This document shows positions 2,219 through 45,418 of a stretch of DNA of 64,000 nucleotides, piece by piece (the first letter of the stretch is position 1; each line of letters starts with the position of its first letter). Origin of the DNA: a virus. The notes beneath the pieces are model-generated. The model worked only from the letters and a program-made list of their open reading frames with translations. It was not told where the DNA came from and made no database searches. The position numbers were made by a program, and so were the translations under genes. The stretch lies in the IMG/VR virus record IMGVR_UViG_3300027763_000027, positions 32,001 to 96,000 of that record; one strand, 5' to 3'.

Positions 2219-2247
2219 ATATTATCATTATAATGTAATTATGTCAA
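2219..2247 (-). promoter_or_regulatory. sigma70-type promoter
   Basis: TTGACA-17 nt-TAATAT; ATG follows 7 nt after the -10. Confidence 0.65.
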
Positions 2248-4826
2248 CTATTTTTGTCTATCTTTTTTAAATCATTTAATTTCATATAAATTTGATGATC
2301 TTGGATAGCTATTAAATCGCCAAATACACAATCATCTCTTTTTGAGCCTTTCGCTATAACAATATTGCCTTCTTCAAAAGCTTTGTTATTTAACAGTTTA
2401 TTATTTTCAATGTTATCATTAAATATTAATACGCTAATAGAACTGGTTTCATCTGATATTTTTAATCTCACATATCTAGTTTTCTTTTCGTTTTTTGATA
2501 CACCAGTATATACTTCCTCTATTTGACCCACAAATGCTACTTTTGAATTAATTGGTTCTTCTAGGATATCTGATATAAATTTTAAATTCTCACGCTTTTC
2601 AATAAAGATATCCCTTAGATTTTTGTTGTATGTATATCCTAATAGCTTTTTTTCATAATACCAATTTGCAAAACTTTCGCTTTTACTATTCTGATTGTAA
2701 ATTTCAAGATATGGCGCATACTTTGCTTTAATAGTGTTTAATCTGTTATCTTTAATAACCACATGATTTTTTTCGTCAGTAAATTTATTGAGGTGTTTAA
2801 TTATTTTAATTAAATCATAATCAAATTTATCTGCAAATGAAATTGCATATTTTTTTTCTTTGGCAGTTAGGATGTTCCATAATTGAGCTTCTAGAACAAT
2901 TTTACTTCTAGATTGACTAAAACCACTTAATGCCCCAGCTTGAATTAAAGATGATAGAACCCCAATGTTAAGATTTGCTTCTTCTGCTGCTTGGAAAATT
3001 TCAAATTTATTAGAATACTTATTTCTAAAGCTATTTAATTTTTCGATAGATTTATCACTAATCCCTTTTATAGAGAGCAATCCAAATCTGATATCCTTAT
3101 CTTCTGTTGAGAAATCCATTTCTGATTTAATGATATGTGGAGGAAGAAGTTTGATGTCGAATTCATGCATTTCTTTTTGAATCTTAGAGATTTCACCAAT
3201 TGGGTCTGGTTCATTTCTGCTCATTTTCAATAATGACAAGAAAAATTGTTGAGGATAATTAAATTTTAAATAAATTGTAACTGCTGCCAAAGCAGCATAA
3301 GCTAACGAATGACTTTTGTTAAATGAATAATTTGCAGAATCCTCTAGAATCTTCCAAAGAATCTCTCCTACTTCTTTTGGAATTTTATTTTCTTTAATCT
3401 TTAATTCGATCTTTTTCTTCCACGCTTTGATTTCTTCTGTTTTCTTTTTACCAACGATTCTCCTTAAGATTTCCGCTTCGTCAAGAGTGAAGCCGATTTT
3501 GTTCGCCATCTTCATCAACTGCTCTTGATACAGGGCTACTCCACCAGTTTCTTTTAGGATCTCATCGAAAAATGGATGAATACTTTCTGATTGTTGATAA
3601 TTTGTATGAGCAGCATATTTATCCACGAATTGTAATGCTCCAGGTCTTGCTAAAGCTAAGACTCCGCTAAGTTCCTCAAGGCTTTTTGGCTTTACCTTTT
3701 GACAAACTCTAAAATTAGTTTCTGCTTCAATTTGAAACAGTCCGTGAGGCGATCTTAATTCTTGTAGATTTCTATAAATAGATTCATGATTTAAATCGAT
3801 ATCTTCTACTTTGATGCCTATGCTTTTGCAAACATCATCAACTACAGAAACACTTCTTAAACCCAAAATATCGAGTTTAATATTAAATAAACTAACCCAG
3901 TTCATATCAAAACTAGAAACTGGCTCTTTGTCTGATGAAAATTCAGTAGGACAAATTGTTTCTAAATTATAATAAGATAAAAGAACTCCAGAAGGATGGA
4001 CTCCTTTATTTTTAATTAAATCTCTGAGTTTTAAAGCTATTTCATAAGTTTCTTTATTTTCATCACACCAATCTTTAAATTTGGAAACTTCTTCGTAAGC
4101 CTCTTCGATGTTTTTGACTTGACCATATACCTTTGGAATTAAAGAGGAGATATTCGTCATCTCTTCTTCTGTTTTTTCGCCCACGATTTTACCACATTCT
4201 TTTATTAATAATTTTCCACTTAATGTGTTTAAAGTTAAAATTTTACTAGTTTTTCCTTTAAATTTATTTTCCAAGTATTGAAGTACTTTTTGTCTATTAT
4301 AATAACAAATGTCCAAATCAACGTCACACATTAAACTACCATCCAAATAGGTTACCCCGTCAACAACCTGCTTTTTAGCTCGAATCTTGGATATAAATCT
4401 TTCGAAATAGAGGTCATATTTAACTGGATCTATCCTAGTTACCCCAATAAGATATAGTATTAATGACCCAGCAGCCGAACCCCTACCTAATCCTATTGGA
4501 ATATTGCTAGTTTTACAAAAATTAATAACATCCCAAACTAATAAAATATAATCTATAAAACCCAATTCTTTTAATGTTTCTAATTCGTATTTTGCTCTAT
4601 CAATATATTTTTTATAATCTTTATTATTCTTGTCTATATTTAAATTTTTAAATCCATTCAAAGATAAAGCTCTTAGAAAATCATAATTATCAACATCCTC
4701 GCTTATATTAAGATGCCTCTTTAGGGATGAATCGATATTAAACTCTGGTAGTCTAACGCCGTGTAGACCTAAATCTATATCAGAGAATTTTTCAGAAAAG
4801 ATATTGTCTTTTAAAGCGTTATTCAT
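2244..4826 (-). CDS. dnaE: DNA polymerase III alpha subunit (DnaE-type) lacking the N-terminal PHP domain
   Basis: GRGSAAGSL, FERF, DVDLD catalytic motif, HPSGV, KLDILGL, YSFNKSH, IRFGL, C-terminal OB-like region. Confidence 0.95.
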   Translation of the reverse strand: MNNALKDNIFSEKFSDIDLGLHGVRLPEFNIDSSLKRHLNISEDVDNYDFLRALSLNGFKNLNIDKNNKDYKKYIDRAKYELETLKELGFIDYILLVWDVINFCKTSNIPIGLGRGSAAGSLILYLIGVTRIDPVKYDLYFERFISKIRAKKQVVDGVTYLDGSLMCDVDLDICYYNRQKVLQYLENKFKGKTSKILTLNTLSGKLLIKECGKIVGEKTEEEMTNISSLIPKVYGQVKNIEEAYEEVSKFKDWCDENKETYEIALKLRDLIKNKGVHPSGVLLSYYNLETICPTEFSSDKEPVSSFDMNWVSLFNIKLDILGLRSVSVVDDVCKSIGIKVEDIDLNHESIYRNLQELRSPHGLFQIEAETNFRVCQKVKPKSLEELSGVLALARPGALQFVDKYAAHTNYQQSESIHPFFDEILKETGGVALYQEQLMKMANKIGFTLDEAEILRRIVGKKKTEEIKAWKKKIELKIKENKIPKEVGEILWKILEDSANYSFNKSHSLAYAALAAVTIYLKFNYPQQFFLSLLKMSRNEPDPIGEISKIQKEMHEFDIKLLPPHIIKSEMDFSTEDKDIRFGLLSIKGISDKSIEKLNSFRNKYSNKFEIFQAAEEANLNIGVLSSLIQAGALSGFSQSRSKIVLEAQLWNILTAKEKKYAISFADKFDYDLIKIIKHLNKFTDEKNHVVIKDNRLNTIKAKYAPYLEIYNQNSKSESFANWYYEKKLLGYTYNKNLRDIFIEKRENLKFISDILEEPINSKVAFVGQIEEVYTGVSKNEKKTRYVRLKISDETSSISVLIFNDNIENNKLLNNKAFEEGNIVIAKGSKRDDCVFGDLIAIQDHQIYMKLNDLKKIDKNS

Positions 4827-38270: not shown

Positions 38271-38337
38271 AGTAAATACTATTACACATTAAATATAAAA
38301 AATGATATTATAAATTATTAATCTTTGTATTATATCT

Positions 38338-38725
38338 TGGACCCGAGAGGAGTTGAACCTCTGTCTTTTAAAAATCTAAATTAAAATACTACAAGTTTAG
38401 TTCATTTTAATATTTAGCTTCATATAGATAAATAAACAAACATATTCAGCGTATTCTATCTTGAGTATTGCTATCTAAAGAATAGAAAAACTATTAAATA
38501 GCAAACATCTAATTACGCAATATTCCAGTAGATGTGTCGTGGATATCACGCTGTAACTTAAGCTACAGAAGCGGTCTCTTCTACAAGAGAAACTCTTGCA
38601 GAAATATGACCTTTATATTTTGCTGTTTTGGCAGTTAATATAATTGAAACTTTTTAAGGAGTCCTCGATTCAACCTCCACTTGCATTTCAATTTATTTCT
38701 TTAAAATCGAAACCAGTACGGGCCC
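38338..38725 (-). ncRNA. ssrA: tmRNA
   Basis: 5' GGGCCCG pairs with 3' CGGGTCC-A, giving the G3:U alanine identity pair. 5' GGTTTCGA, T-arm AGAGGTTCAACTCCTCT. Resume context TTAACT-GCC and tag ORF 38632-38558 AKTAKYKGHISARVSLVEETASVA*. CCA not encoded. Confidence 0.92.
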
Positions 38726-38774: not shown

Positions 38775-38986
38775 TATTTTTATTAAGATTAAATATGGTA
38801 CTACAAGATAAAATATTAAACCTATTAGATCAAATTATTGAAAAGAATATATTGGAAGATTCAATTAATAAAAAGCCAATTGAATCTGGAGATAATTGGA
38901 ACGTATTTTATTTAAAAGTTTTAAAAAATTTGTTACAAGAATTATTTGACAAAAAACAAAATAAAGAGTATTATAAGATCACATAG
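38768..38986 (+). CDS. Small hypothetical protein (probable start MVLQDK)
   Basis: ORF between the two RNA genes. Confidence 0.45.
   Translation: MAIFLLRLNMVLQDKILNLLDQIIEKNILEDSINKKPIESGDNWNVFYLKVLKNLLQELFDKKQNKEYYKIT
38946..38974 (+). promoter_or_regulatory. sigma70-type promoter facing the non-coding structured region
   Basis: TTGACA-17 nt-TATTAT; predicted +1 near 38981. Confidence 0.7.
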
Positions 38987-39315
38987 TCCCCTATTAGGAC
39001 AGTTTATTGATACCAAAAAATCAATTATCAATCCCTGAGATAGCAATGTCCCAAGGGCTGACAACTATTAAAACCTTCATTTGTACATAACATGGCTAAA
39101 GAAGGAAATGTAGCTATAGGCATCGCAGAATGTAGTGATCGAAGCTACCTCTGATCCGTAAGTGCGATGGCCCTTTGTTGCTGAGATCGCAACAAATTTG
39201 GAGTTAAAAGAAAAGTTGGATTGATAATACTCAACCTCAGACTATAATAATCTAGAGGTAAAGCCCTTTTGGATATTAAAGAAAAGTTAAATAATTCAGA
39301 GAAGGACACTAGATA
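38981..39315 (+). ncRNA. Unassigned structured ncRNA (~335 nt)
   Basis: No ORF in the track, higher GC than flanks, own promoter, several hairpins, and an 11-bp long-range helix (39024-39034 with 39218-39228). Confidence 0.7.
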
Positions 39316-44992: not shown

Positions 44993-45070
44993 AGTTTACA
45001 AGAAGCTTGAATATTATATTACATCATATTTAAGTATATAGAAAGAAAAAACCAAGAAGTTGTAAACAAT

Positions 45071-45418
45071 TTAATCTAAGTGACTTTTTGGGTGTACTTT
45101 ACCTTTTCTTTTTTTAGACCAATCATCGAAATATTTTTTCTTAATGGGATCTTTGCCGTAAACTTTTTTTCTTTTTTCAGATAATTCTTGACTTCTCTCC
45201 CAAAGATCACCTACTGTACCTTTTTGATTTTTTGTTACTCTTGCGAAATCTTTTTCATTTGAATTTACAGACAATTTTTCTTGGGTATTGACTTGAGGAG
45301 ACGTAAAAACCCTATCCCATAAAATACCATCTTCATAATACTCATGCTTATCATGAATACTTTGGATTATTTCTTTTACCTGTTTAGTCTTAGGATTTTG
45401 ATAGATATATACTGGCAT
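45071..45418 (-). CDS. FmdB-like small protein
   Basis: MPVYIY..E.IQS...W.RVF; lacks the Zn-ribbon cysteines. Confidence 0.5.
   Translation of the reverse strand: MPVYIYQNPKTKQVKEIIQSIHDKHEYYEDGILWDRVFTSPQVNTQEKLSVNSNEKDFARVTKNQKGTVGDLWERSQELSEKRKKVYGKDPIKKKYFDDWSKKRKGKVHPKSHLD

What the first reader, a model, noticed from the sequence alone, without database searches (positions are those of the whole stretch)
38981..39315. Unassigned ~335-nt highly structured RNA with its own promoter, divergent from tmRNA
Seen: a consensus promoter (38946-38974) and no ORF in the track. Long-range helices: ATAGTC 38983-88 with GACTAT 39240-45, and ATTATCAATCC 39024-34 with GGATTGATAAT 39218-28. A crossing pair AAGGGCT 39053-59 with AGCCCTT 39262-68 suggests a pseudoknot or switch. 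Local stems: a GCAA-tetraloop hairpin, ATGGCTA/TAGCTAT whose loop GAAGG can pair with upstream CCTTC, CATCGCA/TGCGATG, TTTGTTGC/GCAACAAA. It lacks the RNase P, SRP, 6S and tRNA hallmarks I can recognise. Speculative: AAGAUCACAUAGUCC and CUCAGACUAUA resemble group I intron S and R (P7) elements in reversed order, as in a circularly permuted ribozyme.
Basis: partly seen in the sequence, partly recalled or inferred. Interest (0 to 1): 0.8.

Follow-up and report, generated by a model that had tools for sequence, protein, structure and literature searches.

The report
New pseudoknotted phage RNA gene

Summary
The RNA is real and, as far as these tools show, undescribed. The window is part of a 172-kb, 31% GC phage record. 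At 38981-39289(+), behind a conserved sigma-70-type promoter (TTGACA-17-TATTAT, 38946-38974), lies a block found in about 60 related freshwater phage contigs. These fall into three clades: A at 82-100% identity, B at about 60%, and C found only with a covariance model. Flanks and neighbouring genes differ. On 49 distinct sequences, 98.3% of cells pair and 45 of 74 pairs show compensatory changes, against 14.1 in shuffles and 8-16 in slid controls.

The fold has a long-range helix, two pseudoknots (PK1, PK3) and several hairpins. Rfam 15 gives nothing at E<=10 for any clade.

The group I idea fails. The S-like AAGAUCAC lies upstream of the start and is not conserved. The R-like CAGACUAU sits in a variable hairpin. 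The proposed ATAGTC/GACTAT helix pairs in only 45% of cells.

The most unusual feature is two single-stranded 18-nt motifs (39200-39217, 39271-39288) that change in parallel across clades. I read the RNA as a trans-acting scaffold or decoy presenting two copies of one recognition site; this is an inference. Expression could not be checked.

The parts
38946..38974 (+). Sigma-70-type promoter: -35 TTGACA (38946-51), 17-nt spacer, -10 TATTAT (38969-74)
   Evidence: Scores 11/12 in the consensus scan. TTGACA and the spacing are kept in clades A and B and in L365 of clade C; L366 has TTGATT. Conservation of the RNA begins 7 nt after the -10 box.
38981..39289 (+). The RNA gene (309 nt). The 5' end is inferred from the promoter and the onset of conservation (ACAUAG). 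The 3' end is at least 39289, where conservation stops; no terminator was found.
   Evidence: Alignments A2 and A3. The covariance model R1 scores the window copy at 361.7 bits over positions 1-311. Single copy in the genome. No terminator-like site.
38986..39000 (+). Hairpin Ha (GUCC/GGAC) with a 7-nt loop
   Evidence: All three clades pair with different sequences: GCUU/AAGC in B, CCGC/GCGG in C.
39006..39025 (+). Hairpin Hb with a conserved loop (uGUCAAAnAA in most of clades A and B; UACCAAAAAA in the window itself; ACUCCGAAAA/ACUCCGAGAA in clade C)
   Evidence: The stem covaries.
39026..39034 (+). 5' strand of the long-range helix Hc
   Evidence: Pairs with 39218-39226. All 9 pairs show compensatory changes: UAUCAAUCC/GGAUUGAUA in A, UAUUAGUUC/GAACUAAUA in C.
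39039..39069 (+). Hairpin Hd: GAUAG/CUAUU plus YGUC/GACR, with an internal loop CAA. Its loop 39053-39059 is the 5' strand of pseudoknot PK1.
   Evidence: The pair at columns 120:136 is 26 U:A to 23 C:G with none broken. Clade C has UGGG/CCCA and CGC/GCG.
39262..39268 (+). 3' strand of pseudoknot PK1 (AGCCCUU), pairing with AAGGGCU at 39053-39059
   Evidence: AAGGGCU/AGCCCUU in A, AUAGGCU/AGCCUAU in B, CGGAGCU/AGCUCCG in C. PK1 was not in the covariance model, so this support does not come from model fitting.
39074..39105 (+). Hairpin He (CCUUC 39074-78 with GAAGG 39101-05). The loop is large and variable in clade A and short in clade C.
   Evidence: The closing pair is C:G 30, U:A 11, A:U 6. 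Clade C has CCACUA/UAGUGG.
39110..39115 (+). 5' strand of pseudoknot PK3 (GUAGCU), pairing with AGCUAC at 39143-39148 in the loop of Hh
   Evidence: 99% of cells pair; C:G changes to G:C in five sequences of clades B and C.
39119..39172 (+). Stem Hg (39119-27/39163-72) topped by Hh (39137-41/39152-56). The conserved loop AAGCUACCUC carries the PK3 3' strand.
   Evidence: 5 of 9 Hg pairs and 4 of 5 Hh pairs show compensatory changes.
39174..39196 (+). Hairpin Hi, a variable stem; reduced to GCC-GAAA-GGC in clade C
   Evidence: 6 of 8 pairs show compensatory changes within clade A alone.
39200..39217 (+). Twin motif, copy 1 (GGAGUUAAAAGAAAAGUU), single-stranded, just before the Hc 3' strand
   Evidence: Invariant in clades A and B apart from a C/U position that changes together with copy 2. 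Clade C has GGACUCAAUUGGGAAGUU (L365) and AGACUCAACUGGGAAGUA (L366).
39218..39226 (+). 3' strand of the long-range helix Hc
   Evidence: See the Hc 5' strand.
39235..39258 (+). Hairpin Hk.
   Evidence: The stem is kept and the loop varies freely among relatives.
39271..39288 (+). Twin motif, copy 2 (GGAUAUUAAAGAAAAGUU), at the 3' end of the conserved block
   Evidence: Changes in parallel with copy 1: GGAGCUCAUUGGGAAGUU in L365, AGAGCUCACUGGGAAGUC in L366.

Best explanation
Shown: 38981-39289(+) is an independent gene for a non-coding RNA of about 310 nt in an uncultured freshwater phage lineage. A host-type sigma-70 promoter precedes it. The RNA folds into a compact structure: hairpins Ha and Hb; a 9-bp long-range helix Hc enclosing Hd, He, Hg/Hh and Hi; a pseudoknot from the Hd loop to the 3' region (PK1); and a pseudoknot from the He-Hg linker to the Hh loop (PK3).

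Inferred: the RNA acts in trans as a rigid scaffold. It presents two copies of one single-stranded recognition motif (RGA-N1-2-UYA...GRRAAGU) at 39200-17 and 39271-88, with a possible third, shorter copy in the Hb loop. It would bind two copies or a dimer of one partner, either a host or phage protein or a nucleic acid with a repeated site, and so work as a ribonucleoprotein scaffold or decoy during infection. The partner and the biological effect are unknown.
For: Gene status: the promoter scores 11/12 and is conserved. The promoter and RNA are conserved as one block while the flanks and neighbours differ between relatives.

Structure: 98.3% of cells pair and 45 of 74 pairs have compensatory changes, against 14.1 +/- 2.5 in shuffles and 8-16 in slid controls. 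Every helix is rebuilt with different letters in three clades. PK1 and PK3 were not in the model, so their support is independent of model fitting.

Not coding: 1-nt indels shift the only recurrent antisense frame.

Not a leader: clade A lacks a co-oriented downstream gene, and nrdA keeps its own upstream element without the RNA.

Twin motif: no complementary segment exists in the RNA, and both copies change alike in four respects. C becomes U in the window, L082 and L145 in both copies. AAAGAAAAG becomes AUUGGGAAG in both in L365. AUUGGG becomes ACUGGG in both in L366. GGA becomes AGA in both in L366.
Against: No partner was identified: there is no adjacent conserved protein gene, no complementary site elsewhere in the phage genome, and no above-chance complementarity to the phage tmRNA. 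The parallel change of the two motifs rests on few independent events and could come from gene conversion between the copies. The many invariant unpaired bases would also fit a ribozyme or a ligand-binding RNA.
Confidence: 0.4

Rival explanations
1. It is a ribozyme of a new class, self-processing or acting on another RNA such as phage tmRNA or tRNA precursors. The invariant junction bases would form an active site.
For: The size, the two pseudoknots and the more than 100 positions that are invariant between clades A and B, many of them unpaired, are typical of catalytic RNAs. The phage carries tmRNA and tRNA genes.
Against: There is no similarity to any ribozyme family in Rfam. The conserved 5' end coincides with the predicted transcription start, not with a cleavage site. 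Hi and the large He loop are dispensable in clade C, but that says little about a core.
Confidence: 0.15
2. It is an RNA-only structural assembly of the ROOL/GOLLD kind: copies of the RNA associate into a dimer or cage, and the conserved single strands make contacts between molecules.
For: ROOL and GOLLD are phage and prophage RNAs with multiple pseudoknots, often near tRNA genes, of unknown function, and they form cages (10.1101/2024.12.08.627333). This RNA also sits in a phage, beside a tmRNA gene in clade A. Copy 2 holds a 6-nt palindrome, GAUAUC in clades A and B and GAGCUC in clade C.
Against: It is much smaller (310 nt against about 580 and 800 nt or more). There is no Rfam match to either family. 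The palindrome rests on one change, and the window itself has GAUAUU. The tmRNA is not adjacent in clades B and C.
Confidence: 0.12
3. It is a transcript that primes or marks a replication origin. A strong promoter would drive a structured RNA whose purine-rich tracts form a stable RNA-DNA hybrid, as with ColE1 RNA II or the T4 ori transcripts.
For: A strong promoter and two purine tracts, AAAAGAAAAG. It is one of the few plus-strand genes in a minus-strand block.
Against: The purine tracts become UUGGGAAG in clade C. The compensatory changes show selection on the RNA fold over the whole length. The cumulative GC-skew minimum lies about 8 kb away, near 46-48 kb.
Confidence: 0.04
4. It is a cis-acting leader or riboswitch of the ribonucleotide reductase gene nrdA.
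For: In clades B and C the RNA lies 120-140 nt upstream of nrdA on the same strand. In all clades it sits at the edge of the nucleotide-metabolism genes.
Against: In clade A, including the window, nrdA is 3.4 kb away on the other strand. It keeps the same proximal upstream element without the RNA. The RNA has its own promoter in all clades.
Confidence: 0.04
5. It is a circularly permuted group I ribozyme.
For: In the window alone, AAGAUCACAUAGUCC and CUCAGACUAUA resemble the S and R elements, and ATAGTC/GACTAT can pair. The Hg-Hh-Hi stems loosely recall P4-P5-P6, and PK1 recalls P3.
Against: The S-like AAGAUCAC lies upstream of the start and is not conserved. The R-like element lies in a variable hairpin loop. 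The proposed P7 pairs in 45% of cells. The junctions are 59 and 21 nt where group I introns have about 3. The only helix in a P7-like position (Hc) changes all nine pairs between clades. Rfam's group I model gives no hit at E<=10.
Confidence: 0.01
6. The conservation reflects a small protein gene on the opposite strand (54-58 codons at 39145-39309).
For: An open antisense frame of 53-72 codons recurs in most clade A and B sequences.
Against: It covers only the 3' half of the conserved block. 1-nt indels shift the frame, so the peptide diverges after ...TFLLTPN while the nucleotides stay conserved. The changes are compensatory for RNA pairing.
Confidence: 0.01

Closest known systems
ROOL and GOLLD RNAs (Rfam families; large 'ornate' phage and prophage RNAs)
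   Same: Carried by phages, stand-alone genes, several pseudoknots, located among RNA genes (tRNA islands there, a tmRNA here in clade A), no known protein partner or function.
   Different: No sequence or structure match. About half to a third of their size. Restricted to one freshwater phage lineage. Has twin single-stranded motifs that co-evolve. Multimer formation is untested.
Group I self-splicing introns (Rfam RF00028), including engineered permuted intron-exon forms
   Same: A pseudoknotted core, and a P4-P5-P6-like run of stems (Hg, Hh, Hi) between the two strands of a P3-like pseudoknot (PK1).
   Different: No conserved R or S elements and no P7 with a guanosine site. The junctions are long. 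There are no exons or host gene. No model match.
tmRNA (RF00023), the neighbouring gene at 38335-38725(-)
   Same: Similar size, rich in pseudoknots, phage-encoded, driven by a comparable promoter, present in the same genomes in all three clades.
   Different: No tRNA-like domain and no tag reading frame. ARAGORN and Rfam do not recognise it as tmRNA. It is adjacent only in clade A.
Protein-sequestering RNAs (CsrB/RsmZ, 6S RNA)
   Same: Trans-acting RNAs that present repeated or mimic sites to bind a protein; this is the working model proposed here.
   Different: Only two or three motif copies, on an elaborate fixed fold. The motif is not a simple GGA loop, and in L366 GGA becomes AGA. No Rfam match.

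Membership tests
Group I intron (normal or circularly permuted) | Conserved R and S elements forming P7 with the guanosine-binding site | tested here: not met
   The S-like AAGAUCAC is not conserved and lies upstream of the conserved start. The R-like element is in a variable hairpin loop. ATAGTC/GACTAT pairs in 45% of cells.
Group I intron (normal or circularly permuted) | Match to the Rfam covariance model RF00028 | tested here: not met
   No hit at E<=10 on the native order in clades A and C. Re-permuted sequences could not be submitted to the tool.
Group I intron (normal or circularly permuted) | Core topology P3-[P4-P5-P6]-P7-P3' with junctions of a few bases | tested here: not met
   59 nt with an extra hairpin lie between the PK1 5' strand and Hg. 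21 nt lie between Hi and the Hc 3' strand. A 35-nt hairpin region lies between Hc and the PK1 3' strand.
Group I intron (normal or circularly permuted) | Self-splicing or circle formation with guanosine | not testable with these tools
   Needs an in vitro assay.
tmRNA | tRNA-like domain and tag reading frame | tested here: not met
   ARAGORN and Rfam find only the neighbouring gene at 38335-38725(-).
RNase P RNA, SRP RNA, 6S RNA | Match to the Rfam models for these universal RNAs | tested here: not met
   No hit at E<=10.
ROOL / GOLLD | Match to the Rfam models | tested here: not met
   No hit at E<=10.
ROOL / GOLLD | RNA-only homo-oligomeric cage | not testable with these tools
   Needs native gel or cryo-EM.
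Cis-regulatory leader or riboswitch | Always directly upstream of, and co-oriented with, the regulated gene | tested here: not met
   True in clades B and C (nrdA) but not in clade A, where the next gene is convergent.
RNA partner of a reverse transcriptase or of a TnpB/IscB-type nuclease | The partner enzyme is encoded in the same element | tested here: not met
   No RVT_1 and no TnpB zinc-ribbon domain in the 172-kb genome, which CheckV rates 100% complete.

The most novel reading that the evidence does not exclude
The RNA founds a new class of phage ribonucleoprotein or guide-like RNA. A knotted scaffold would carry two identical recognition arms that co-evolve with a repeated or dimeric target, such as a host nucleic acid read by base pairing or a host factor, to redirect a host process during infection.
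Probability: 0.2. Interest if true: 0.85.

Novelty: categorically new. Interest (0 to 1): 0.62.

Why it matters
New structured RNA classes of about 300 nt with extensive covariation are rare, and known ones have often turned out to be ribozymes, ribonucleoprotein cores or, recently, RNA cages. This one is phage-specific, sits behind a strong host-type promoter, and has an unusual signature: two single-stranded motifs that change in parallel. That signature gives a concrete handle for finding its partner. The model R1 and the three-clade alignment make the family searchable. A defined fold of 281-316 nt is small enough for chemical probing, cryo-EM and pull-downs. The limits are a distribution confined to one uncultured lineage, an unknown host, and no expression data yet.

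Tried and rejected
- **Rfam searches:** gathering thresholds on the whole window and E<=10 on the locus in clades A and C gave only chance-level hits such as Yfr11 at 17.7 bits against a cut-off of 44.
- **Phage GenBank collection:** BLAST found no match.
- **S...R pattern in IMG/VR:** the group-I-style pattern hit only a coding sequence by chance.
- **Neighbouring pyruvyl transferase:** no relatives in IMG/VR.
- **Bacterial and archaeal genomes:** the only hit was the end of a chimeric contig in an Actinomycetota MAG.
- **Twin-motif pattern scans:** the metagenome and IMG/VR scans added only clade A members.
- **Partner searches:** there is no reverse transcriptase, TnpB or SmpB in the genome, no second copy and no complementary site, and no above-chance complementarity to the tmRNA (-100 against -95 +/- 7 kcal/mol for shuffles; short-motif duplexes about -13 kcal/mol at different sites).
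- **Literature:** a catalogue of more than 10,000 candidate viral structured RNAs (PMC10690425) may or may not list this RNA. Its text does not mention it and no supplement is held.
- **RNAalifold's pairing of 39003-16 with the 3' tail:** rejected, because it conflicts with the covarying hairpin Hb and shows no compensatory change.

Full report
**Setting.** The window is bases 32001-96000 of a single 171,916-base virus record with 31% GC. CheckV rates it complete. It encodes phage replication proteins: a DnaE-like polymerase, a DnaB helicase and UvsX. It has no close cultured relative; the best polymerase identity is about 31%. A tmRNA gene lies at 38335-38725 on the minus strand.

**The observation.** At 38946-38974 there is a near-consensus sigma-70 promoter, TTGACA-17-TATTAT, scoring 11 of 12. 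Rfam 15 finds nothing in or near 38981-39315, either at gathering thresholds or at E<=10. The single sequence folds only slightly better than shuffles (z = -1.82), so the case had to be made by comparison with relatives.

**Relatives.**
- The polymerase retrieved 80 related IMG/VR contigs. BLAST of the locus against those records found homologues at 85-92% identity and one at 67%.
- A 20-nt invariant pattern then gave 48 true IMG/VR loci. Two further pattern scans added 10 metagenome contigs and 2 IMG/VR loci, one of them truncated.
- The only hit in 185,579 bacterial and archaeal genomes is the end of a chimeric contig. The RNA therefore looks phage-specific.
- A covariance model built from 38 distinct sequences (R1) found a third, much more divergent clade in two related phage records. 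These are L365 and L366, at 63 and 59 bits, 281-286 nt and 46% GC.

**Extent of the gene.**
- In all alignments conservation starts at the -35 box. It drops between the -10 box and the start, resumes exactly at ACAUAG (38981), and ends at ...AAAGAAAAGUUA (39289).
- The flanks are unrelated between relatives and the neighbouring genes differ.
- In the window, a real small protein gene ends inside the first six bases of the RNA. It runs from 38795 to 38986 and is 46% identical to a protein in L142.
- The promoter plus RNA thus behaves as an independent unit. No terminator was found, so the 3' end is uncertain.

**Structure.**
- On alignment A2 (38 sequences) the proposed structure pairs in 97.4% of cells. 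It has 32 pairs with compensatory change, against 10.7 in shuffles and 4-11 in slid controls.
- On A3 (49 sequences, three clades) it pairs in 98.3% of cells. It has 45 of 74 pairs with compensatory change, against 14.1 +/- 2.5 in shuffles and 8-16 in slid controls.
- A3 was fitted to the nested helices, which favours them. The two pseudoknots were not in the model and are still supported.
- A direct check shows that every helix is rebuilt with different letters in clades A, B and C.
- The fold, in window coordinates:

| Element | Coordinates | Note |
|---|---|---|
| Ha | 38986-89 / 38997-39000 | hairpin |
| Hb | 39006-10 / 39021-25 | hairpin with conserved loop |
| Hc | 39026-34 / 39218-26 | long-range helix |
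| Hd | 39039-43 / 39065-69 and 39047-50 / 39060-63 | hairpin; its loop is the PK1 5' strand |
| PK1 | 39053-59 / 39262-68 | pseudoknot from the Hd loop to the 3' region |
| He | 39074-78 / 39101-05 | hairpin |
| PK3 | 39110-15 / 39143-48 | pseudoknot from the He-Hg linker to the Hh loop |
| Hg | 39119-27 / 39163-72 | stem below Hh |
| Hh | 39137-41 / 39152-56 | its loop carries the PK3 3' strand |
| Hi | 39174-81 / 39189-96 | hairpin |
| Hk | 39235-41 / 39251-58 | hairpin |

- Hi shrinks to a GAAA-capped 3-bp hairpin in clade C, and the large He loop is short there. Both are therefore peripheral.

- Right: the promoter, the absence of a conserved ORF, the long-range helix Hc, the crossing pair PK1, CCUUC/GAAGG, CAUCGCA/UGCGAUG, and the UUUGUUGC hairpin.
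- Wrong: the ATAGTC/GACTAT helix pairs in only 45% of cells.
- Wrong: the GCAA-tetraloop hairpin. Its closing pair breaks in 13 of 38 sequences. The alternative YGUC/GACR pair covaries 26 U:A to 23 C:G with none broken.
- Not general: the AUGGCUA/UAGCUAU hairpin has no compensatory change, and its 5' strand is missing in clade C. Its 3' strand forms PK3 instead.

**The group I idea.**
- The S-like AAGAUCAC lies between the -10 box and the conserved start, and it differs in almost every relative.
- The R-like CAGACUAU lies in Hk, whose loop varies freely.
- Rfam's group I model gives no hit.
- The junctions that are about 3 nt in group I introns are 21-59 nt here.
- The helix in a P7-like position, Hc, changes all nine pairs between clades, unlike a guanosine-binding P7.
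- I could not submit permuted sequences to Rfam. The comparative data make the idea very unlikely without that test.

**Other readings excluded.**
- Coding on the opposite strand: the recurrent antisense frame covers only the 3' half and is shifted by 1-nt indels.
- Leader of nrdA: in clades B and C the RNA lies 120-140 nt upstream of nrdA on the same strand. In clade A nrdA is 3.4 kb away on the other strand and keeps the same proximal upstream element without the RNA.
- Template or guide for a phage enzyme: there is no reverse transcriptase or TnpB-type nuclease in the genome.
- Functional tie to the tmRNA: the two genes are adjacent and divergent in clade A, where a tmRNA was found upstream in 42 of 59 loci. 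They are about 16 kb apart in clades B and C, and no meaningful complementarity was found. The phage has no SmpB.

**The twin motif.**
- Two single-stranded stretches, at 39200-17 and 39271-88, share the pattern RGA-N1-2-UYA...GRRAAGU. Nothing in the RNA or elsewhere in the phage genome is complementary to them.
- They change alike, as the table shows.

| Sequences | Copy 1 | Copy 2 |
|---|---|---|
| Clades A and B | GGAGUCAAAAGAAAAGUU | GGAUAUCAAAGAAAAGUU |
| Window, L082, L145 | U in place of the C before AAA | same change |
| L365 (clade C) | GGACUCAAUUGGGAAGUU | GGAGCUCAUUGGGAAGUU |
| L366 (clade C) | AGACUCAACUGGGAAGUA | AGAGCUCACUGGGAAGUC |

- The Hb loop shows the same G-to-C change before UC (GUCAAA to CUCCGA).
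- Identical change, rather than complementary change, in two sites points to a shared partner, or less likely to gene conversion between the copies.
- The events are few and the clades are nested, so this is suggestive and not proven.

**Most likely function.** The RNA is a stand-alone, promoter-driven, trans-acting RNA. I infer that its fold presents two copies of one recognition site, acting as a ribonucleoprotein scaffold or decoy. Rivals are a new ribozyme, a ROOL/GOLLD-like RNA-only assembly, or a replication-priming transcript. None is excluded by computation.

**Novelty.** No Rfam family matches, no bacterial homologue exists in the collections searched, and no description turned up in the literature searches. 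A published catalogue of more than 10,000 candidate viral RNAs built from IMG/VR (PMC10690425) could contain it without naming it, and I could not check that. I rate it a new RNA class of unknown function, with strong evidence that it is real and weak evidence for its mechanism.

Noticed in passing
window 38335-38725 (-), promoter 38774-38747: The phage tmRNA has an unusual 24-residue tag, AKTAKYKGHISARVSLVEETASVA. The tag is nearly identical in dozens of relatives and in clades B and C. The gene has its own 11/12 sigma-70 promoter. The genome encodes no SmpB.
   Followed up: partly
window 38795-38986 (+): A small protein gene of 63 aa, 46% identical to a 70-aa protein in L142. It overlaps the RNA promoter, and its stop codon TAG lies inside the RNA's first six bases. 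In most relatives this position is instead taken by a 66-92-aa gene on the other strand, between the RNA and the tmRNA where a tmRNA is present.
   Followed up: partly
window 44993-45080 (-), and L102, L118, L109, L365, L366 upstream of nrdA: A conserved AT-rich element (TTTTTCTTTTT ... TGTAAYAT) lies 20-70 nt upstream of nrdA in all clades, whether or not the RNA is adjacent. It may be a phage promoter or an operator of the reductase genes.
   Followed up: no
L157:1406-1512 (RGER01000055.1, Actinomycetota MAG): A high-GC actinobacterial contig ends in 107 bases of the 3' part of this phage RNA. It looks like an assembly chimera and is not evidence about the host.
   Followed up: yes
genome C1:127307-127399 (outside the window): ARAGORN calls a 93-base tRNA-Ile(TAT), unusually long, in a small tRNA cluster with Met, Leu and Arg.
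   Followed up: no
window 2244-4826 (-): The replicative polymerase matches PHROG 'DNA polymerase' families. By tblastn it resembles DnaE-type Pol III alpha subunits of other phages at about 30% identity, so the lineage has no close cultured relative.
   Followed up: partly
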